A stretch of DNA of 64,000 nucleotides from Nanobdellota archaeon (GTDB lineage: Archaea; Nanobdellota; Nanobdellia; Woesearchaeales; GW2011-AR4). The notes under the pieces were generated by a model, which saw only the letters and a list, made by a program, of their open reading frames with translations, had not been told where the DNA came from and made no database searches. Positions 18,771 through 55,688 of this stretch are shown one piece after another. The first letter of the stretch is position 1. The number at the start of each line of letters is the position of its first letter. Both the position numbers and the translations under genes were made by a program. The DNA lies in contig JADFLA010000001.1 in NCBI GenBank assembly GCA_022564635.1, positions 7,041-71,040 on the forward strand, written 5' to 3'.

Positions 18771-19117
18771 TTTAAAATAAAGCATAAATCTTAAAAAACA
18801 ATAAAGTTCAGAACTGCATTCATAATTAATTCATTAATATTTTAGTTAAATACTATAAAAAATCAAAAAGCAATAAAATAAGAAAATAATAATTCGGTGT
18901 TTTGCTAGTGAATTGCTGCGAACTTGTGAGCAGACGCTTGCAGTACAATAATGCAAAACACCACCTTAAGATTGGTTGTTAAAGATACGAAATAAGATGA
19001 AATTTTCCTTTAAGAAGTTATGAGAGAAAATTTTCGAATTATTAAAAATAAATTTCATTGTTAAAAAGATATAAAAGGTGAAATTAAAAAACATCTGAAC
19101 AAATAATTGTGAACACA

Positions 19118-19224
19118 CGCGAAAATTGAAAATTTTCGGTGAACTGGGAAATTTCAAAGAAATTTCCGGTTTCCCAAAAATTGCAAAGCAATTTTTTAGG
19201 ATCCTGAAAATTCAAAGAATTTTC
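19118..19224. repeat. tandem array of four related 21-bp inverted repeats (9-nt arms, 3-nt spacer) at 28-29-bp spacing, 20 bp upstream of 19245 start
   Basis: gcgaaaatt-gaa-aattttcgg (19118), ggaaatttc-aaa-gaaatttcc (19146), aaaaattgc-aaa-gcaattttt (19175), tgaaaattc-aaa-gaattttca (19204); arms verified as reverse complements. Confidence 0.8.
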
Positions 19225-19244
19225 ATGATAAGATAATAAAACTA

Positions 19245-22334: not shown

Positions 22335-22598
22335 TTAATATAATTGAGACCTTGAATAAACCATTATTACCAATATAATAATCATTACTACAACTAAAAT
22401 TATTAATGGAATTGTTTCAACTTGATTTTTGGTATTGCTCTTTTCTATTGTAGGTAAATCAGGCTCAAATTTATGCAATGCAACATTATATTTCATTGGA
22501 GGTTCATGATATGCATAAAAATGCTTTTGCATTTTTGGCATCCTAGAAATCCGAGAGGATTTCTTTGATATTATTTTTTTCTTGCTTTTCTTCTTCAT
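22335..22598 (-). CDS. hypothetical small membrane protein
   Basis: basic N-terminus, single C-terminal TM. Confidence 0.3.
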   Translation of the reverse strand: MKKKSKKKIISKKSSRISRMPKMQKHFYAYHEPPMKYNVALHKFEPDLPTIEKSNTKNQVETIPLIILVVVMIIILVIMVYSRSQLY

Positions 22599-32494: not shown

Positions 32495-32558
32495 TTGGAA
32501 ATTTCCAAAACCGGTGGAAAACAAAGTTTTCCTGGGCTTTGAAAATTAAAAATTTCCA
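32495..32558. repeat. cluster of three GAAA/TTTC-type palindromes related to the dispersed paired-palindrome family
   Basis: ttggaaatttccaa (32495, perfect 14-bp palindrome), ggaaaac-aaa-gttttcc (32516), tgaaaatt-aaa-aatttcca (32540, 1 mismatch). Confidence 0.6.
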
Positions 32559-32610
32559 AAACCATTAAAAATAATAAGAAAATTAAATTAAAAAAATAAT
32601 GTATTGACAA

Positions 32611-33916: not shown

Positions 33917-34531
33917 ATGGTAACAAAGATAAAGGAAAAAATCATAGTTGAGGGTGATGATAGCAAGGAACATCTTGGCCTTGTTCATGTTGTAACAGGT
34001 GATGGAAAAGGTAAAACTACCTCATCATTAGGTTTAGCTGTTCGTGCTTTAGGTAGCAACTTAAGGGTTTGCATGATACAATTCCTCAAGTCTGGAACTA
34101 CTGGAGAGCTTTATACAATAAAAAAACACCTTCCAGGAATGGAAATAGAGCAATTCGGTGTTGATGCAGTAAAGGAAAGGCAGCAGAAACTTGATGCTTT
34201 TAGAGATAAAGGAAGCAAGTTTGTTTTTAATCCCGATGAGCAGGAGAAAGAAGCTGCCATACTTGGATTCCAGCATGCAAAAAAAATAATTAATTCTAAA
34301 GAGTATGAATTGGTAATCTTGGATGAGATAAATGTTGTTTTGGATAAATCTTTAATACCAATAAAAGATGTTCTTGATTTAATGGAAAACCATGGAAAAG
34401 TTGAATTATATTTTACTGGCAGGGATGCACCTCAGGAATTAATGGATAAAGCAGATTATGTTAATATTATCAAGGGAGTAAAGCATCCATGGCAGAAAGG
34501 TATAAAAGCAAGAAAAGGGATTGAGTATTAA
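33917..34531 (+). CDS. cobA: cob(I)alamin adenosyltransferase (CobA/CobO/BtuR family)
   Basis: P-loop GDGKGKTTSSLGLAVRALG…RVCMIQFLK…GE family signature. Confidence 0.75.
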   Translation: MVTKIKEKIIVEGDDSKEHLGLVHVVTGDGKGKTTSSLGLAVRALGSNLRVCMIQFLKSGTTGELYTIKKHLPGMEIEQFGVDAVKERQQKLDAFRDKGSKFVFNPDEQEKEAAILGFQHAKKIINSKEYELVILDEINVVLDKSLIPIKDVLDLMENHGKVELYFTGRDAPQELMDKADYVNIIKGVKHPWQKGIKARKGIEY

Positions 34532-34585
34532 AACCATGAAAATTTTCAATTTTCAGGGTACAAAAAATCCGGAGGATTTTTAAGT

Positions 34586-36457
34586 ATGCCAAAACTAAAG
34601 TTGAGCAACAACGCAATAAAAATACTTGAAAAAAGGTATCTGATAAAAGATGATAATGGCAAAGTAATTGAAAAACCAGAAGATTTGTTCAAAAGAGTTG
34701 CAAATAACATAGCATTAGCAGATGCAAAATATCTATTAAAGGAAGAAATAGCAAATTTAGAGAGCAATGAAGAATACTTTGAATTAGTAAAAACAAAACT
34801 CTTCCAAAAATTATTAAATAAAAACAAAAAAGTTAAGAAAAAAATAGAAAAAACAGAAAAAGAATTCTATAATTTAATGATTAGTTTAGATTTTTTACCT
34901 AATTCTCCAACCTTATTTAATGCTGGCAGAGATTTACAACAGCTTGCTGCATGTTTTGTTCTGCCTGTTGAAGATAATCTTGACTCAATCTTCAAAGCAT
35001 TGCATTATGCTGCAAAAATATCAAAATCAGGCTCCGGAACCGGATTTAACTTCTCAAGATTAAGGCCAAAAAATGATGTGATAAAATCAGTTGCCGGTTT
35101 TTCTTCTGGACCTTTATCATTTATGAAGATTTTTGATGCAGTAACAGAGCAAATTAAATTAGGAGGTCTAAGAAGAGGAGCTCATATGGGTATATTAAGA
35201 GTCGACCATCCAGATATAGAAGAATTTGTCACAATTAAATCCCGCGAAAAGGTTCTGGAAAATTTCAATATTTCTGTCGCAGTTACAGATAAATTCATGA
35301 ATGCTGTTCTGAAAAATAAGGACTATAAACTCATAAACCCTAGGACTCAAAGTGAAGTTAAGGAGGAAAATGCAGAAAAAATTTTTGAGCTTATATGCGA
35401 AGAAGCCAACAAAACTGGAGATCCAGGCATAATTTTCCTTGATAGAATAAACAAAGACAATCCAATACCAGAGCTGGGTATTCTAGAGGCTACTGACTCA
35501 TGTGGTGAACAACCCTTATTACCCTATGAATCAGCTAATTTAGGTTCCATTAATCTTTCTAATATGGCTAAGAATGGTAATATTAATTTTAATAAATTAA
35601 AAACAACTATTCACAATGCAATCCATTTCCTGGATAATGTAATTGATATGTGCCACTACCCTAGTCCTGAAACAAAAGAAATTGTTCATGCAAACAGAAA
35701 AATAGGTTTGGGTGTAATGGGATTTGCTGATATGCTCATTAAATTAAAAATTCCTTACAACTCTGAAAAAGCAGTAAAAACAGCAGAAAAAATTATTGCC
35801 TTCATCAGGAAAGAGGCTGATAATGCTTCTGCAAACCTTGCAAGAGAAAGGATGACATTCCCAAACTGGGATAATAGCATTTACAATAGAAAAAGCAAGC
35901 ACTTTAAAGGAAAACATCTACCATTAAGAAATGCTACTAGATTAACTTTAGCCCCTACAGGAAGCATAAGCATCATAGCTAACACTTCTTTTGGCATCGA
36001 ACCATTATTTGCATTGTCTTTTGTTAGAGCTTTAGATGATGGTACAGAGCTTTTAATTGTTGATAAGAATTTTAAGGAAGCTATGGAGAAAAAAAAGCTT
36101 TACGATAAGGATTTTATGAAATATATAGCAAAAAAAGGCACTATTCAAAATATGGAATCAATACCAAAAGATATTAGAAATACATTTGTAGTTTCTTATG
36201 ACATAAGCCCGGAATATCATGTAAAAATACAGGCAGCTTTTCAAAAATATGTTGATAATGCTGTTTCAAAAACGGTAACATTGCCTGAAATAGCAACTGT
36301 AGAAGATGTGAAAAATACATTTTTACTTGCACACAAACTTGGATGCAAAGGCATTTCCATCTACCGTTTTGGTTCAAGAGATGACCAGGTATTGTTTTTA
36401 AGAGCAATGAAGGAAGAACAGATTAATTTGACTAATTGGCTAAGACATTTGAGATAA
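34586..36457 (+). CDS. nrdJ: adenosylcobalamin-dependent (class II) ribonucleotide reductase
   Basis: LPNSPTLFNAGR, ACFVLPVEDNLDSI, catalytic Cys/Glu region SCGEQPL; adjacent to cobA-family gene. Confidence 0.8.
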   Translation: MPKLKLSNNAIKILEKRYLIKDDNGKVIEKPEDLFKRVANNIALADAKYLLKEEIANLESNEEYFELVKTKLFQKLLNKNKKVKKKIEKTEKEFYNLMISLDFLPNSPTLFNAGRDLQQLAACFVLPVEDNLDSIFKALHYAAKISKSGSGTGFNFSRLRPKNDVIKSVAGFSSGPLSFMKIFDAVTEQIKLGGLRRGAHMGILRVDHPDIEEFVTIKSREKVLENFNISVAVTDKFMNAVLKNKDYKLINPRTQSEVKEENAEKIFELICEEANKTGDPGIIFLDRINKDNPIPELGILEATDSCGEQPLLPYESANLGSINLSNMAKNGNINFNKLKTTIHNAIHFLDNVIDMCHYPSPETKEIVHANRKIGLGVMGFADMLIKLKIPYNSEKAVKTAEKIIAFIRKEADNASANLARERMTFPNWDNSIYNRKSKHFKGKHLPLRNATRLTLAPTGSISIIANTSFGIEPLFALSFVRALDDGTELLIVDKNFKEAMEKKKLYDKDFMKYIAKKGTIQNMESIPKDIRNTFVVSYDISPEYHVKIQAAFQKYVDNAVSKTVTLPEIATVEDVKNTFLLAHKLGCKGISIYRFGSRDDQVLFLRAMKEEQINLTNWLRHLR

Positions 36458-45556: not shown

Positions 45557-45919
45557 TCAACCACAAATATCCATAAATTCTTTAGGAGAAACAATTTTTG
45601 TATTTCCAAACTTTTTAAGTTTCAGTAGATGTTTATTCCCAGAAACAATATAGTCTGCATTAATTCTTGCAGAACATCTTAATATCATATCATCATCAGG
45701 GTCTTCTTTAACGACATTTCCAATATATTTAGGAGCGACAATTTTAGCATAAGTTAAGATCAAGTTGATTTGCCTTTTAATCATTTCTTCTGGTTCATCA
45801 AAATCTCTTCTCATAACTTTCTCTACATCTTTAAGAATTTCTAAAGTGATAAAGACTTGAATTTTCTTGTCTATTGCTTTTTCTACAATCATATGTGGAT
45901 TTCCAAGTTCCCAGAACAC
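45557..45919 (-). CDS. PIN-domain (VapC-like, TIGR00305-type) toxin, N-terminally truncated (first catalytic Asp region missing; GTG/internal ATG start only)
   Basis: …IVAPKYIGNVVKEDPDDDMILRCSARINADYIVSGNKHLLKLKKFGNTKIVSPKEF collinear with PIN C-terminal two-thirds; upstream in-frame sequence is a palindromic element then a stop. Confidence 0.5.
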   Translation of the reverse strand: MFWELGNPHMIVEKAIDKKIQVFITLEILKDVEKVMRRDFDEPEEMIKRQINLILTYAKIVAPKYIGNVVKEDPDDDMILRCSARINADYIVSGNKHLLKLKKFGNTKIVSPKEFMDICG

Positions 45920-45920
45920 G

Positions 45921-45964
45921 CGAAAATCGAAGATTTTCGGTGTCCTGGAAATCTATGATTTCCA
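45921..45964. repeat. paired-palindrome element copy (minus orientation), ~89% identical to 52094..52137
   Basis: cgaaaatc-gaa-gattttcg + GGTGTCCTG + tggaaatc-tat-gatttcca; compensatory substitutions relative to copy D. Confidence 0.8.
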
Positions 45965-46004
45965 TGAGATAGAAGAAATGAATATGTTTGTGTCTAAAAC
46001 AACC

Positions 46005-46271
46005 TTAAGCACCTTTAATACCTCTACCTTTGTGTATGATTTTCATTACATCTTCTTCTTTTATTCCTTTCTTCTTAGCAAATTCTTGACCCCATTTTGT
46101 TAGTTTCTTAAATTCTTCCTTAGGATCAGGAATTTGTACTTTCTTAAGCAAGATCAAATCATCTGTTCTACTAACTACTAGAGTAGAACCTGTATCTAAG
46201 CCTAAATCTTTCCTCATATCATATGGAATTACAACTTGTCCTTTTGAAGACATTTTAGTTATTTCAGTCAT
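46005..46271 (-). CDS. AbrB/MazE/SpoVT-family antitoxin (VapB-like)
   Basis: SSKGQVVIPYDMRKDLGLDTGSTLVVSRTDD swapped-hairpin motif; upstream of PIN gene on same strand. Confidence 0.65.
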   Translation of the reverse strand: MTEITKMSSKGQVVIPYDMRKDLGLDTGSTLVVSRTDDLILLKKVQIPDPKEEFKKLTKWGQEFAKKKGIKEEDVMKIIHKGRGIKGA

Positions 46272-51819: not shown

Positions 51820-52093
51820 TTTTACCCTATTTTAGCCATTATTTGACGCTCTAAAGCCCCTTCTGAACCCTTCACATTTGATACATTTTTGACCTTTTCC
51901 AGGCCTTCAAAAGCCTTTATGAGCAACTTACTTTCAGGGCTCTTAAAACCACTAATTCCATTGAATTTAAAAACCTTCATTTTTGATCCAAATTTTTGGA
52001 TTACTGATCCATAATTTTTTCTAAAATTTTTTATAATTAATTTTTAATTTACCATTAATTTATTTTTTATTATCAAATTTTTTAATGAATTCA

Positions 52094-52137
52094 TGAAAAT
52101 CGTAGATTTTCAGGACACCAAAAATCTTTGATTTTTG
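52094..52137. repeat. paired-palindrome element copy (plus orientation)
   Basis: tgaaaatc-gta-gattttca + GGACACC + caaaaatc-ttt-gatttttg, followed by GCGTGTT; near-identical to reverse complement of 45921..45964. Confidence 0.8.
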
Positions 52138-52196
52138 CGTGTTTTATTATTGTTTTTATTATTGAATTATCCTTTTTTTAATCTCTTTCCAGTCTC

Positions 52197-52317
52197 ATTC
52201 CCACTTAATTCCCATCATATTCCCAATATAATCCCATTTTATTCCCAAATATTTAAACTTTTCGTCTTATATCATTCCCAAATATGTCCCATTATATTCC
52301 CAATATAGTCCCAGAAA
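52197..52317 (+). repeat. 11-bp iteron array: nine ATTCCCAaTAT-like units in two clusters (5 + 4) on a strict 11-bp phase, 45 bp upstream of 52358
   Basis: CCCA cores at 52200, 52211, 52222, 52233, 52244, then 52277, 52288, 52299, 52310 (gap = 3 x 11); two pairs of units identical. Confidence 0.8.
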
Positions 52318-52357
52318 AACGAAATATTTAAATAAAATCTAATATAATAATACAATT

Positions 52358-53002
52358 ATGTTCGGAATTAAGATACAATCAAGCACTGATAAAAAACTAT
52401 CTCAAATGCAAAACCTTTTGATGAGATCCTTTTCTAATGTAAAAAATGACACCCAAAAACTCTTCCAATGGCTTAACCACATACATCAAAAAAATCTAGA
52501 CCAAGATAACCAGATAAAGCAGCTACAGCTAGAGCTGTCCTACATCCCAAAAAAACCAGAGGACATCAGAAAGATAATAGACAGCTATTATTCTTTTGAC
52601 AATCTTACAGAGAGGATAAAGATGCTAAATGAGAGGATAGACAGCATATCTGGAGGAAGAAGTGAGACTTACACACAAGCAATGCATCCAGAAATCAGCG
52701 AAATAGAATCCCGACTAACACAGCTAGAAGAGCAAAAAAAAGCAACAATAAGGGAAAAAGTAGTAAAAAGAGTCACAAGAAACTCAAAAGAATACGTAAA
52801 GCAACTAATGCTCTCCTACATTAGAAAATACACCCAAATAGGAGCCTTACAGCTAAAGGACATGATAGTTTATGACCAGGGTTTGTGCTCAAAAAGCTCA
52901 TTTTACAGGCTTTTAGACGAGATTGAAGCCCTAGATGATATAGGGATAGTAAAGAAAGGCAAGCAAAAGTACTATCTTTATAAACAAATAAAAGAGCAAT
53001 AA
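52358..53002 (+). CDS. hypothetical coiled-coil protein with C-terminal winged-helix-like domain
   Basis: heptad-rich N-terminus; C-terminal …LCSKSSFYRLLDEIEALDDIGIVKKGKQKYY wHTH-like. Confidence 0.4.
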   Translation: MFGIKIQSSTDKKLSQMQNLLMRSFSNVKNDTQKLFQWLNHIHQKNLDQDNQIKQLQLELSYIPKKPEDIRKIIDSYYSFDNLTERIKMLNERIDSISGGRSETYTQAMHPEISEIESRLTQLEEQKKATIREKVVKRVTRNSKEYVKQLMLSYIRKYTQIGALQLKDMIVYDQGLCSKSSFYRLLDEIEALDDIGIVKKGKQKYYLYKQIKEQ

Positions 53003-53070: not shown

Positions 53071-53637
53071 GTGGTAATGATTTTTGACGAGTTTTTCAAG
53101 CAAAGAAAGCGCTATTTCTCAAAAAAGCCAAAAAACAACGATCTTGAGCTAAAAGAAAAATTAAAAGGCATTAAAAAGGAATTAAACGGGCATTTAGACG
53201 CTATTAACGAAAACACAAGCGAGATACAAACAAGCTATGAGTGCATGAATGAGATCAATGACAAGTTAGAAAAATTGACAGAAAGGGTAGAGGCAATAGA
53301 AATTTACCTCCAACAATACTCAAATTTCAACGCTGTAGAAAAAAGCTTTGACATAAAACCATTAACAAAAACAGAACAACATGTTTTCCTAGTTATTTAT
53401 GCCTTAGAGGACGAAAAAGGCCTTGTTTCTTATCCAGATATAATCAAAAAAACTGGTTTGCCCAGCTATGTTGTAAGTGAGTATATCGCAAGATTAGTAG
53501 AAAAAGGAATTCCATTATTAAAGAAATATGTAAATAACTTATCATATATAAAACTGAACCCCGAGTTTAAACGCTTGCAAGCAAAAGAAAATATCCTGAT
53601 GATAGACACAGCACAAAAAGAATTGGTTAATTTTTAA
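53071..53637 (+). CDS. hypothetical coiled-coil protein with C-terminal winged-helix-like domain (similar architecture to upstream gene)
   Basis: coiled-coil N-terminus; …LTKTEQHVFLVIYALEDEKGLVSYPDIIKKTGLPSYVVSEYIARLVEKG wHTH-like. Confidence 0.4.
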   Translation: MVMIFDEFFKQRKRYFSKKPKNNDLELKEKLKGIKKELNGHLDAINENTSEIQTSYECMNEINDKLEKLTERVEAIEIYLQQYSNFNAVEKSFDIKPLTKTEQHVFLVIYALEDEKGLVSYPDIIKKTGLPSYVVSEYIARLVEKGIPLLKKYVNNLSYIKLNPEFKRLQAKENILMIDTAQKELVNF

Positions 53638-54953: not shown

Positions 54954-55688
54954 ATGACTGAAAAAGTAGGCATTTATGTGCGTGTTTCAACTGAGGAGCA
55001 AGCAAAAGAAGGAATAAGTGTAGATGCGCAGATAGATAGGTGTAAGGCTTTTTGTAAAGCAAGGGCTTGGAAAGTATTTAGAATTTATACTGATGCTGGT
55101 TATTCAGCTGGATCAATGGATAGGCCTGCATTGAAGAATTTGTTTGATGATATTACCAATAAAAAAATTAATATTTTGCTGGTTTACAAAATTGACAGAT
55201 TTTCAAGAAAACTAAAGGATTTGATATCTATATTGGAGGACCTACAATCAAAAGGTGTTAACTTCACATCTGTTACTGAGCAGATCGATACAACAACAGC
55301 AATGGGGGAAGCCTTTTTCCAGATAATTGGTGTTTTTGCGCAACTTGAAAGAGGTATGGTAAAAGAAAGAGTTGAAATGGCTTTTGATAAAAAGATTAGT
55401 TCTGGTGAAATTCTTAATAGGGCTCCAATGGGTTATGTTTATAGAAATGGCAAGCTTTTCGTAAATGAGGAAGAGGCAGAGAAAGTTAGAGAAATCTTCA
55501 ATATGTGGGCAACTGGGATCAATTACAAAGAAATAGCTAAAAAATTCAATATTCCGGTTTCAACATTGTATGAAATTGTTAAGAATCCTACTTATATCGG
55601 AAAAGTAAAATATAGGAATAAATTATATGGTGGGGTTCATAAAGGCATTATTGATGAAGAATTATTCCAAAAAGTAAATGGTAAGTAA
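54954..55688 (+). CDS. serine recombinase (resolvase catalytic domain + partial recombinase domain; probably 3'-truncated large serine recombinase)
   Basis: GIYVRVSTEEQ (catalytic Ser), DRFSR, then recombinase-domain start APMGYVYRNGKLFVNEEEAEKVREIFNMW…; lacks zinc-ribbon/coiled-coil C-terminus. Confidence 0.75.
   Translation: MTEKVGIYVRVSTEEQAKEGISVDAQIDRCKAFCKARAWKVFRIYTDAGYSAGSMDRPALKNLFDDITNKKINILLVYKIDRFSRKLKDLISILEDLQSKGVNFTSVTEQIDTTTAMGEAFFQIIGVFAQLERGMVKERVEMAFDKKISSGEILNRAPMGYVYRNGKLFVNEEEAEKVREIFNMWATGINYKEIAKKFNIPVSTLYEIVKNPTYIGKVKYRNKLYGGVHKGIIDEELFQKVNGK

What the first reader, a model, noticed from the sequence alone, without database searches (positions are those of the whole stretch)
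52087..52147. A ~55-bp paired-palindrome element found twice almost unchanged (52094-52137 and 45921-45964), with compensatory substitutions that preserve dyad symmetry
Copy D reads TGAAAATC-gta-GATTTTCA / CAGGACACC / CAAAAATC-ttt-GATTTTTG / GCGTGTT. The reverse complement of 45905-45965 reads TGGAAATC-ata-GATTTCCA / CAGGACACC / CGAAAATC-ttc-GATTTTCG / GCGTGTT. That is about 89% identity over 54 bp. Four of the six differences occur as matched pairs in opposite arms of the same palindrome (G/A with C/T). This means the hairpin or dyad is under selection, not just the sequence. The GC-rich spacer CAGGACACC and the trailing GCGTGT also recur in degenerate form at 19110-19170. This looks like a REP/MITE-like or operator-like element family not tied to any annotated gene class.
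Basis: seen in the sequence. Interest (0 to 1): 0.65.

Follow-up and report, generated by a model that had tools for sequence, protein, structure and literature searches.

The report
Tiny mobile hairpin-pair repeat, DPANN archaea
The two near-identical 51-bp "paired palindromes" are copies of a previously undescribed miniature mobile DNA element of Woesearchaeota/Nanoarchaeota-type archaea that inserts precisely without duplicating its target, even inside genes, while base-pairing of its two hairpins is preserved by compensating mutations.

Summary
Copies D (52091-52141, +) and E (45917-45967, -) are 51-bp units reading TCA, hairpin 1, GG, hairpin 2. They differ at 6 positions: 2 in loops and 4 in two compensating pairs.

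The window holds four more family members. One is a four-hairpin long form with the same ends.

A pattern scan found the core in 44 loci of about 12 DPANN-type archaeal MAGs and in 35 metagenome contigs. It found none in viral, phage or plasmid collections, and Rfam has no match.

Five filled/empty site comparisons show exact insertion with no target duplication and no terminal inverted repeats. The sites are a PIN toxin gene in the window, another repeat, two places in a Y1 transposase gene, and an EpsG-like gene.

In the EpsG-like membrane-protein gene the unit is read in frame as 17 residues. There it evolves more slowly than the host gene, and its changes are compensatory.

So it is a REP/MITE-like mobile element, not an operator.

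The mobilising enzyme was not identified. An HUH/Y1-type single-strand mechanism is my best inference, but insertion flanks are variable and the one Y1 IS found has unrelated ends.

Novelty: a new variant of a known kind. Interest is moderate to high.

The parts
52091..52141 (+). Copy D: 51-bp short-form unit. Layout: TCA lead; hairpin 1 at 52094-52112 (8-bp stem, loop gta); GG; hairpin 2 with lower stem ACAC 52115-52118 / GTGT 52139-52142, bulged C at 52138, and upper stem 52119-52137 (loop ttt). Lies in a divergent intergenic region.
   Evidence: 82.8 bits
45917..45967 (-). Copy E: 51-bp short-form unit inserted in frame into a PIN-domain (VapC-like) toxin gene. It brings in a TAG stop codon.
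   Evidence: 83.4 bits. Empty site ...TCTTCTATC|TTCTGGGA... in intact orthologues
45557..46012 (-). Host gene of copy E: a PIN_3 toxin gene split by the insertion. The 5' fragment VLKVVLDTNIFISSISWKS* starts at 46012. The 3' part is ORF 45557-45919, called as 111 aa in public records. The AbrB/MazE-type antitoxin gene 46005-46271 upstream is intact.
19116..19228 (-). Copy A: four-hairpin long form. Layout: TCA-TGAAAATTC..-GGATCCTA-AAAAATTGC..-GGGAAACC-GGAAATTTC..-CAGTTCAC-CGAAAATT..-CGTG. Its two ends match those of the 51-bp form. The same architecture occurs at L148 445-560.
22511..22568 (-). Copy B: divergent two-hairpin member. Stems are AGAAATCC/GGATTTCT and AAAAATGC/GCATTTTT, with lower stem ATGC/GCAT.
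   Evidence: (35.2 bits, E 1e-5)
32506..32563 (-). Copy F: weak, divergent member. Hairpin 1 is TTGGAAATT/AATTTTCAA with one G.T pair. Hairpin 2 is GGAAAAC/GTTTTCC.
   Evidence: (28.9 bits, E 3e-4)
34534..34587 (+). Copy C: divergent two-hairpin member, CCATGAAAATTttcAATTTTCAGGGTACAAAAAATCCggaGGATTTTTAAGTAT. It fills the 54-bp gap between the CobA/BtuR-type gene (33917-34531) and the ribonucleotide reductase gene (ATG at 34586).
   Evidence: (43 bits, E 1e-7)

Best explanation
The element is a family of miniature, non-autonomous mobile DNA elements of DPANN (Woesearchaeota/Nanoarchaeota-type) archaea.

Anatomy. The common form is a 51-bp unit: 5'-TCA, then hairpin 1, then GG, then hairpin 2.
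- Hairpin 1 is an 8-bp A-tract stem with a free 3-nt loop. At its foot an A.G mismatch is followed by C-G/T-A.
- Hairpin 2 has a lower stem ACAC/GTGT, a bulged C, an 8-bp A-tract upper stem and a free 3-nt loop.
- The unit ends in ..GCGTG-3'.
- A four-hairpin long form of about 113 bp has the same two ends. The short form therefore looks like an internal-deletion derivative that kept only the cis-acting ends.

Shown:
- The unit inserts as an exact block, with no target-site duplication and no terminal inverted repeats.
- It lands in intergenic DNA, in coding sequence (sometimes read through in frame), in other repeats and in hairpins of its own family.
- Its stems are kept paired by compensatory change, while the loops vary freely.

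Inferred:
- It is moved in trans by a sequence- and structure-specific enzyme that recognises the two imperfect hairpins on folded single-stranded DNA.
- That is a peel-and-paste mechanism of the IS200/IS605-TnpA / RAYT (HUH, Y1) kind. Such enzymes are encoded in these lineages.
- Once resident, copies probably act like bacterial REPs, as neutral or mildly useful hairpins in DNA or RNA.
For: Distribution.
- The 22-nt core pattern hits 44 loci, all in DPANN-type MAGs. One MAG holds about 22 copies.
- It hits 35 metagenome contigs.
- It hits nothing in viral contigs, phages or plasmids.

Mobility: five filled/empty comparisons, all exact blocks without target duplication.
- PIN gene: 51 bp.
- The outer repeat of MAG CAYWNO occurs once without the core and at least 20 times with it: 51 bp.
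- Two sites in a Y1 tnpA gene, L120 against L121/L124.
- EpsG-like gene, L104/L160/L163 against L165: 51 bp.

Nested insertions into hairpins of other family members occur in L129, L147 and L141. In the CAZBGH outer hairpin the core sits at two different positions and in two orientations.

The long and short forms share their ends.

Pairing is under selection.
- With N allowed at the four covarying positions, all 36 metagenome hits are A-T or G-C, with no mixed combination.
- In 25 distinct cores, 97.8% of cells are paired, and 0 of 500 shuffles reach the observed covariation.
- In 29 diverse members, most stem positions show 2-4 Watson-Crick pair types with almost no mismatch.
- The lower stem of hairpin 2 covaries: ACAC/GTGT, ATGC/GCAT, GTGC/GCAC, GACAC/GTGTC, GCAC/GTGC.
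- Between orthologous in-gene copies, the differences are in loops, in the bulge or in compensating pairs (C-G to T-A twice), plus one change (C31 to A in L163) that breaks a terminal pair. The compensating changes occur even though they alter the encoded residues.

Hints of folding on one strand, as protein-recognised hairpins.
- The A.G mismatch at the foot of hairpin 1 is conserved in 52 of 74 distinct copies.
- The bulge in hairpin 2 is conserved.
- Half-compensated states are G.T (7 cases) rather than A.C (0-1 cases).

Copies lie in both orientations relative to neighbouring genes, which argues for a DNA-level process.

Y1_Tnp (PF01797) genes occur in the same lineages, and in two element-bearing genomes (L088, L120).
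Against: No mobilising gene was linked to the element.
- The window has no Y1 transposase.
- Among about 560 kb of element-bearing DNA, only one Y1 fragment (L088) was found.
- The one Y1 IS family recovered has ends that do not resemble the GAAAATC hairpins. Its left end reads AATGAC..CCAGCTAAAGCTGG.
- No copy was found with the two ends separated by a gene.

IS200/IS605 elements insert 3' of a fixed tetra- or pentanucleotide. Here the bases flanking the insertions are variable: ATC|T, CTA|T, TTA|T, AAG|C, AAA|A, ACT|C and others.

The excess of G.T over A.C rests on few independent events.

Strand bias relative to replication could not be tested on MAG fragments.

The in-gene copy evolves more slowly than its host gene: 84-90% against 73-81% nucleotide identity. 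That is more than a purely selfish, decaying insertion predicts.
Confidence: 0.55

Rival explanations
1. The same mobile element, but moved as double-stranded DNA by another recombinase that leaves no target duplication and has little target preference. Candidates are an IS607-type serine transposase or a tyrosine recombinase. On this reading the palindromes are protein-binding sites, not folded hairpins.
For: - No target duplication, and variable flanks.
- No link to a Y1 element.
- A serine recombinase gene lies 2.8 kb from copy D.
- An integrase gene lies in L115.
Against: - A dimer binding a double-stranded palindrome does not require matched changes in both arms. Yet mixed arms are essentially absent: 0 of 36, and only G.T intermediates.
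- The conserved mismatch and bulge at the hairpin feet have no meaning in duplex DNA.
- No dinucleotide is shared between the element ends and the targets, as serine-recombinase crossover would need. Only a 1-nt T ambiguity is seen.
- The recombinase in the window has the resolvase/large-recombinase layout and is not repeated next to other copies.
Confidence: 0.17
2. The hairpin pair is mainly a host-maintained structured element. It could be a REP-like mRNA 3'-end stabiliser or transcription stop, or a binding site for a DPANN-specific nucleic-acid-binding protein. Its spread would be secondary to that function.
For: - Copies are mostly intergenic, often 1-90 nt after gene ends and between convergent genes.
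- T4-T5 runs follow stems on both strands.
- Copy C exactly fills an intergenic gap between two co-directional genes.
- The core is almost invariant across species.
- The in-gene copy is more conserved than its host gene and changes by compensation.
Against: - Copies lie in both orientations relative to genes and also in promoter-side positions.
- Copies sit inside intact ORFs, inside other repeats and inside each other. That is insertion behaviour, not placement by function.
- There is no Rfam match.
- No expression data are available.
Confidence: 0.15
3. Operator sites for the winged-helix regulators encoded near copy D.
For: - The element consists of two 17-bp palindromes 25 bp apart.
- Copy D lies upstream of ORFs 52358-53002 and 53071-53637, the latter with a weak MarR-type hit.
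Against: - The other copies sit next to unrelated genes, inside coding regions and in many genomes.
- Precise insertion polymorphisms exist.
- The arms change by matched compensation.
- The 11-bp-phased ATTCCCA repeats at 52184-52324 are a better candidate for what those proteins bind.
Confidence: 0.03
4. A mobile mini-intron removed at the RNA level, for example by the archaeal splicing endonuclease. Interrupted genes such as the PIN toxin would then stay functional.
For: - The unit is 51 nt long, a multiple of three, and lies in frame in three genes.
- The termini CAUG and CGUG can pair with each other (seen directly in the sequence).
Against: - I could not draw a bulge-helix-bulge motif. 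That motif needs exon nucleotides in the central helix, and the flanks here are unrelated.
- Other family members are 53, about 57 or about 103 bp long.
- Most copies are intergenic and in either orientation.
- Public annotation translates the unit as protein (P0241).
Confidence: 0.02

Closest known systems
REP / REPIN elements mobilised by RAYT (Y1, IS200-like) transposases in bacteria (PMC3116915, PMC3337134)
   Same: Both are very short, high-copy, mostly extragenic imperfect palindromes without terminal inverted repeats or target duplications. Both occur singly or in clusters, have stems maintained by compensatory change, and persist for long periods in a lineage.
   Different: - Here two different hairpins lie in direct order and each folds on itself. 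A REPIN is two inverted REPs forming one long hairpin.
- The head sequence is TCA/GGA..AC, not GTAG.
- No single-copy RAYT gene flanked by the repeats was found.
- The hosts are DPANN archaea.
- Copies also sit in frame inside genes.
IS200/IS605 family and its gene-less derivatives (PATEs of Haloquadratum, PMC3119063)
   Same: Both lack inverted terminal repeats and target duplication and have a subterminal imperfect hairpin at each end. The short form looks like an internal-deletion derivative that kept the ends. Y1 transposase genes are present in the same lineages.
   Different: - No fixed target tetra- or pentanucleotide lies 5' of the element.
- The ends are unrelated to those of the Y1 IS found here.
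- The hairpins start only 3-5 nt from the ends.
- At 51 bp the unit is several-fold smaller than typical PATEs (the size comparison is from my own knowledge).
Rickettsia palindromic elements (RPEs) (reviewed in PMC10969869)
   Same: Both are palindromic repeats that insert in frame into protein-coding genes and are then translated as extra peptide segments in otherwise intact proteins. Here that is 17 residues in an EpsG-like membrane protein, conserved across orthologues. Both occur in reduced genomes of host-dependent organisms.
   Different: - RPEs are about 100-150 bp, bacterial, and unrelated in sequence.
- Here most copies are intergenic.
- One genic copy (the PIN gene) introduces a stop codon.
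Modular hairpin mosaics: E. coli BIMEs and pneumococcal BOX elements (own knowledge)
   Same: All have a variable number of hairpin modules between conserved end modules. Here that is two-hairpin against four-hairpin forms, plus tandem and nested arrays.
   Different: The sequences, hosts and module orientations differ. BIMEs alternate inverted REPs, whereas here the modules are direct. No host-factor binding is known.
Classical MITEs (TIR plus TSD, moved by DDE transposases), including the archaeal ones of Sulfolobus and Halobacterium (PMC10969869)
   Same: Both are small, non-coding, multi-copy, non-autonomous elements. Both insert into genes and into other repeats.
   Different: This element has no terminal inverted repeats and makes no target-site duplication, so it is not a member of this class.

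Membership tests
IS200/IS605-derived miniature element (PATE-like) | No terminal inverted repeats and no target-site duplication | tested here: met
   Five filled/empty comparisons show exact blocks, with at most a 1-nt T ambiguity. The ends TCATG.. and ..GCGTG are not inverted repeats of each other beyond the hairpin stems.
IS200/IS605-derived miniature element (PATE-like) | A subterminal imperfect hairpin at each end | tested here: met
   Hairpin 1 has a conserved A.G mismatch at its foot. Hairpin 2 has a bulged C between its lower and upper stems. Both are supported by covariation.
IS200/IS605-derived miniature element (PATE-like) | Insertion 3' of a fixed tetra- or pentanucleotide that also flanks every copy | tested here: not met
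   The bases 5' of TCATG are variable (..TA..TC..AA..TG..AG..TT..CT). The base 3' of the unit is T in only about 60% of copies.
IS200/IS605-derived miniature element (PATE-like) | Ends homologous to the left and right ends of a full-length IS with tnpA in the same genomes | tested here: not met
   The Y1 IS found (L088, L121, L124) has left end AATGAC..CCAGCTAAAGCTGG and no GAAAATC hairpins. No split-end copy exists in 590 kb. Other IS families in complete genomes could not be searched.
IS200/IS605-derived miniature element (PATE-like) | Activity of one (top) strand only, with orientation tied to the lagging-strand template | tested here: inconclusive
   G.T (7) exceeds A.C (0-1) among half-compensated pairs, but these are few independent events. 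GC skew in the window follows gene direction and gives no replication direction.
REP / REPIN-RAYT system | Two REPs in inverted orientation forming one long hairpin (REPIN), each headed by a conserved tetranucleotide such as GTAG | tested here: not met
   The two hairpins are in direct order and each folds on itself. The conserved heads are TCA and GGA(C)AC.
REP / REPIN-RAYT system | A single-copy Y1 (RAYT) gene flanked by the repeats | tested here: inconclusive
   The window has none. In L120 family members lie at both ends of a Y1 gene in inverted orientation, but comparison with L121/L124 shows they are insertions into an IS-type tnpA. Other homologues have ordinary termini. Whole genomes were not searchable.
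Classical MITE (DDE-mobilised) | Terminal inverted repeats and a target-site duplication of fixed length | tested here: not met
Rickettsia palindromic elements (as a kind: in-frame, translated palindromic insertions) | Palindromic repeat inserted in frame in ORFs, with the host ORF staying intact and the repeat encoding a peptide segment | tested here: met
   The EpsG-like protein is 495-498 aa with the 17-aa insert YHGN(R/Q)RFPG.. and 476-482 aa without it. The insert is present in four orthologues, and the empty-site DNA is in L165. In the PIN gene the copy brings a stop codon instead.
Rickettsia palindromic elements (as a family) | Sequence relationship to RPE-1 to RPE-10, about 100-150 bp, in Rickettsia | not tested
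   No RPE sequences were at hand. The host is an archaeon and the length is 51 bp, so membership is not claimed.
Any described RNA family (Rfam 15) | Match at or near the gathering score | tested here: not met
   No hit in the whole window at gathering thresholds. Only noise around copy D (best E = 1.6, far below gathering scores).

The most novel reading that the evidence does not exclude
The 51-nt hairpin pair is the cis-acting part of a so far unrecognised, DPANN-wide transposition system.

- Its enzyme would not be the canonical IS200/IS605 TnpA. It might be a different HUH or other hairpin-recognising protein.
- The system would insert and also excise seamlessly, preferring folded or AT-rich single-stranded targets.
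- In-frame insertions in genes would then be reversible and kept under selection in place. Examples are the PIN toxin in this window and the EpsG-like membrane protein elsewhere.

This reading would explain three observations:
- the patchy presence of the insert at one identical site among orthologues;
- a second, different family member at the same site;
- a resident copy that evolves more slowly than its host gene, by compensatory changes only.
Probability: 0.2. Interest if true: 0.75.

Novelty: new variant of a known kind. Interest (0 to 1): 0.6.

Why it matters
DPANN archaea have tiny, streamlined genomes, and almost nothing is known about their mobile DNA. A 2024 review lists archaeal MITEs only for Sulfolobus, Halobacterium, Haloquadratum, Desulfurococcus and a few others (PMC10969869). 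My text searches found nothing on such repeats in Woesearchaeota or DPANN.

This element matters for four reasons.
- It is among the smallest mobile units with exactly defined ends, at 51 bp.
- It is widespread across species-level lineages.
- It inactivates or remodels genes. It splits a toxin gene and adds 17 residues to a membrane protein.
- It builds nested arrays of hairpins.

It gives an archaeal counterpart to bacterial REPs and rickettsial RPEs, and a clean case for finding the enzyme that moves hairpin DNA without target duplication. It is also a practical annotation warning: genes are split or lengthened by the unit, and MAG assemblies break at it.

Tried and rejected
- **Loose one-hairpin pattern.** CATGRAAAT-N5-9-ATTTYCAGG in viral contigs gave 68 hits. 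All were chance, none with a second hairpin, so I used longer patterns.
- **Rfam.** The search at gathering thresholds found nothing, and the permissive E-value search around copy D returned only noise.
- **Known RNA motifs, read by eye.** C/D-box sRNA (no RUGAUGA/CUGA), hammerhead core (junctions do not fit), K-turn (the GA positions are Watson-Crick paired) and bulge-helix-bulge intron (needs exon pairing) were all rejected.
- **Truncated copies L078 and L111.** Both break right after the 5' arm of hairpin 2. I looked for a distant right end that would reveal a long autonomous element and found none within 2.7-7.7 kb.
- **Autonomous copy.** A search of all 590 kb held for the two ends separated by a gene found none.
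- **Link to Y1 transposases.**
  - A remembered IS608/IS200 TnpA led to a real Y1 fragment in L088 and to full genes.
  - Their IS ends are unrelated to the element.
  - Y1 genes are not enriched near the elements.
  - The L120 arrangement is an insertion into tnpA, not a conserved RAYT-like layout.
- **Serine-recombinase crossover.** The two ends share no dinucleotide with their targets.
- **The 27-nt imperfect direct repeat flanking copy D**. I do not read it as a target duplication, because the five clean sites have none and the region is low-complexity AT.
- **GC skew** as a proxy for replication direction was uninformative.
- **Phage and plasmid collections** gave no match.
- **"Open in all forward frames".** I dropped this idea. 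The A-variant has TGA in frame 1, and the loops can create stop codons.
Full report
**1. The observation**

- Copy D on the + strand, 52091-52141, reads TCATGAAAATCgtaGATTTTCAGGACACCAAAAATCtttGATTTTTGCGTG.
- Copy E on the - strand, 45967-45917, reads TCATGGAAATCataGATTTCCAGGACACCGAAAATCttcGATTTTCGCGTG.

The two copies differ at six positions. Two are in the loops. Four form two matched pairs, A-T in D against G-C in E, one pair in each hairpin.

Both strands fold into two hairpins far better than shuffled sequence does, z = -3.5 to -5.3. The trailing GTGT pairs with ACAC of the spacer across a bulged C, so hairpin 2 has a lower and an upper stem.

The window is 31.5% G+C and archaeal in gene content. 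It has no tRNA gene and no Rfam hit.

**2. More copies in the window**

The hairpin scan and a covariance model (R1, built from 25 distinct cores) find four more members.

- A: 19116-19228 (-), with four hairpins.
- B: 22511-22568 (-).
- F: 32506-32563 (-), a weak match.
- C: 34534-34587 (+). It exactly fills the gap between a CobA/BtuR-type gene and a ribonucleotide reductase gene.

**3. Distribution**

- The window's region also occurs in two ENA metagenome contigs, which carry copies D and E as well.
- The window's own truncated PIN protein is held at NCBI under 'Nanoarchaeota archaeon'.
- A scan of one genome per GTDB species with GATTTYCAGGACACCRAAAATC gave 44 loci. Random expectation is below one (my own estimate from pattern length and collection size).
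- All 44 loci are in AT-rich archaeal MAGs labelled Woesearchaeota, Nanoarchaeota or, for a set of TPA assemblies, 'uncultured Methanosarcinales'.
- That last label is doubtful. A protein of one such MAG is identical to an NCBI Woesearchaeota protein.
- One MAG has about 22 copies.
- A 51-nt pattern with four free positions found 35 more contigs in metagenomes.
- The core is absent from IMG/VR viral contigs, GenBank phages and PLSDB plasmids.
- A looser one-hairpin pattern returned only chance hits.

**4. It is a mobile unit with exact ends**

Across genomes the 51 bp from TCATG to GCGTG are nearly constant, while the flanks are unrelated. Five filled/empty comparisons fix the boundaries.

- (a) Copy E lies in a PIN_3 toxin gene. 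Intact orthologues of 135 aa (79-87% identical) read ISSIFWELGNPH. Their DNA reads ..TCTTCTATC|TTCTGGGA... The window has exactly 51 extra bases at the bar. The insertion is in frame but brings a TAG, so the toxin is split while the AbrB/MazE-type antitoxin gene upstream is intact.
- (b) In MAG CAYWNO the core sits inside another repeat of about 95 bp. That repeat occurs once without the core (..CCAACACTA|TATCAAGAGG.., in L112) and at least 20 times with it. The insert is again 51 bp.
- (c, d) In L120 two divergent family members, about 103 bp and 53 bp, interrupt a Y1 transposase gene relative to L121/L124.
- (e) In an EpsG-like membrane-protein gene, 51 bp lie between ..TTA and TATTAAAATA.. 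in L104, L160 and L163. They are absent in L165.

None of these sites has a target duplication. The only ambiguity is a single T. The unit has no terminal inverted repeats.

Cores are also found inside hairpin 2 of other family members. L129 and L147 have it at the same position. L141 has it in a 5' arm. In the CAZBGH outer hairpin it sits at two different places and in two orientations. Arrays therefore grow by nested and adjacent insertion.

**5. Long and short forms**

The four-hairpin form occurs as window copy A and at L148 445-560. It reads TCA-H1-GGA[TCC..Hx..GGGAAAC..Hy..AGTT]CAC-C-H2-CGTG. The 51-bp form reads TCA-H1-GGA|CAC-C-H2-CGTG. The short form thus looks like an internal deletion that kept both ends, as miniature derivatives of transposons do. 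I found no copy with a gene between the ends in the 590 kb held.

**6. The hairpins are under selection**

- In 25 distinct strict cores, 97.8% of cells pair, and 0 of 500 shuffles reach the observed covariation. Only two pairs vary: AU17/GC5/GU3 and GC14/AU8/GU3.
- The unbiased test is the metagenome scan with N at those four positions. All 36 hits are A-T or G-C, with no mixed combination.
- Divergent members give much more. In 29 members, most stem positions show two to four Watson-Crick pair types with almost no mismatch.
- The lower stem of hairpin 2 covaries: ACAC/GTGT, ATGC/GCAT, GTGC/GCAC, GACAC/GTGTC, GCAC/GTGC.
- The loops vary freely.
- Two imperfections are conserved: an A.G mismatch at the foot of hairpin 1 (52 of 74 distinct copies) and the bulge in hairpin 2.
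- Half-compensated pairs are G.T (7) rather than A.C (0-1). This hints that the strand written above is the one that folds, but the independent events are few.

**7. Behaviour inside genes**

In the EpsG-like gene the unit is translated as YHGN(R/Q)RFPG(H/Y)(R/Q)K..IF... Proteins with it are 495-498 aa. Those without it are 476-482 aa. One is annotated at NCBI as an ordinary protein.

The insert is present in four orthologues that do not group together on a quick distance tree. A different family member of about 57 nt occupies the same place in a fifth. The cause could be repeated insertion at one site, precise loss, or recombination between alleles. I cannot tell which.

Between orthologues the unit is 84-90% identical, while 300-nt coding flanks are 73-81% identical. 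Its differences are in loops, in the bulge or in compensating pairs. C38-G42 becomes T-A in L160, and C28-G53 becomes T-A in L163. The L163 change alters two residues. One change in L163, C31 to A, breaks a terminal pair.

A third in-frame case, near the N-terminus of an ORF in L073/L131, was not checked against an empty site.

**8. Context**

Of 62 model hits, most are intergenic and lie in either orientation relative to their neighbours. Eighteen are antisense to both flanking genes, 9 are sense to both, 10 lie between convergent gene ends and 6 between divergent starts. The remaining 19 lie in ORFs or next to a locus end. This argues against a role tied to one transcript orientation and for a DNA-level process.

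**9. Mechanism**

The following features are those of elements handled as folded single strands by HUH/Y1 enzymes (IS200/IS605, REP/RAYT):

- exact ends;
- no duplication and no inverted repeats;
- an imperfect hairpin at each end;
- selection for pairing with conserved irregularities;
- a liking for hairpins as targets.

Such genes exist in these lineages. A fragment next to the element in L088 led to PF01797 proteins up to 86% identical, annotated as IS200/IS605 or RayT in Woesearchaeota and Nanoarchaeota MAGs.

The link is not demonstrated.

- That IS has unrelated ends.
- Y1 genes are not enriched near the elements, and there is none in the window.
- The insertion flanks show no fixed target tetranucleotide, which canonical IS200/IS605 transposition requires.

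I therefore give the single-strand HUH model about 0.55. A duplication-free double-strand recombinase gets about 0.17. A mainly host-maintained structural role gets about 0.15. The operator and intron ideas get a few percent each.

**10. Comparison and novelty**

The element works like bacterial REP/REPIN or IS200/IS605-derived miniature elements. In genes it behaves like the Rickettsia palindromic elements (PMC3116915, PMC3337134, PMC3119063, PMC10969869).

It fails defining tests for each family.

- Its hairpins are direct, not inverted, and no flanked RAYT gene was found.
- It has no fixed target and no matching IS ends.
- It has no TIR or TSD.

It has no Rfam family. Literature searches found no description in DPANN archaea.

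I rate it a new variant of a known kind, with interest about 0.6.

Noticed in passing
window 52184-52324: There are two blocks of 11-bp-phased repeats of (A/T)TTCCCA, about nine copies. They lie 40 nt downstream of copy D and upstream of two ORFs (52358-53002 and 53071-53637, the latter with a weak MarR-type hit). A serine recombinase gene lies at 54954-55688. This looks like iterons or regulator sites of an integrated plasmid- or virus-like segment.
   Followed up: partly
window 45557-46271: The AbrB/MazE-type antitoxin gene (46005-46271) is intact, while its PIN toxin partner is split by the 51-bp insertion with a TAG stop. Public records call only the 111-aa 3' part. This leaves an orphan antitoxin and a probably dead toxin.
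   Followed up: partly
window 52065-52091 and 52142-52168: A 27-nt imperfect direct repeat (78% identity) brackets copy D. It is AT-rich low-complexity sequence. I do not read it as a target duplication because the clean empty sites show none, but it is unexplained.
   Followed up: no
L112 4930-5080; also L072-L114 (MAG CAYWNO): A separate repeat of about 95 bp is present in more than 20 copies. It has two hairpins (TAGTGTTGGA..TCCAACACTA and GGACGCAA..TTGCGTCC) and is bounded by TATA on both sides. It is nearly always carrying the 51-bp core between its two hairpins. A related module occurs in L088 and L130.
   Followed up: partly
L120 1-700; L088 6620-6962: In L120, a Y1 (IS200/IS605-type) transposase gene has hairpin-pair insertions near both ends. 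The called 146-aa protein (P0206) therefore starts and stops inside the inserts. L088 holds an internally deleted copy of the same IS, left end plus the 3' part of tnpA, abutting a composite repeat. Many database homologues are fragments, suggesting widespread decay of this IS in DPANN genomes.
   Followed up: partly
L071-L114 (record titles); L104 1291-2778: Several TPA MAGs titled 'uncultured Methanosarcinales archaeon' carry the element. L104 encodes a protein identical to an NCBI Candidatus Woesearchaeota protein (P0241). The taxonomic label of these records is probably wrong.
   Followed up: partly
P0297 (alignment A5, columns 233-246): One EpsG-like homologue has a different 14-residue insertion, YPAPGYRKKLFFSE, at another place. 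It resembles the frame-3 translation of hairpin 2 (PGHRKS.IF). It may be a single-hairpin insertion of the same family.
   Followed up: no
P0242 against P0254 and P0241: P0242 is 88% identical to both P0254 (no insert) and P0241 (with insert), and its N-terminal part looks P0254-like. It is either a recombinant allele or an assembly chimera. This bears on how the insert became patchy among orthologues.
   Followed up: no
L078 233-284; L111 5248-5300: Two truncated copies from different MAGs both end immediately after the 5' arm of hairpin 2 (..GGACACCRAAAATC). No matching right end lies within several kb. The hairpin tip may be a breakage or recombination hot spot.
   Followed up: partly
L115 3592-3948: A bAvd-like gene (PF22296, an accessory gene of diversity-generating retroelements) lies next to the intact PIN/antitoxin pair in a related metagenome contig. 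A phage-type integrase gene is nearby.
   Followed up: no
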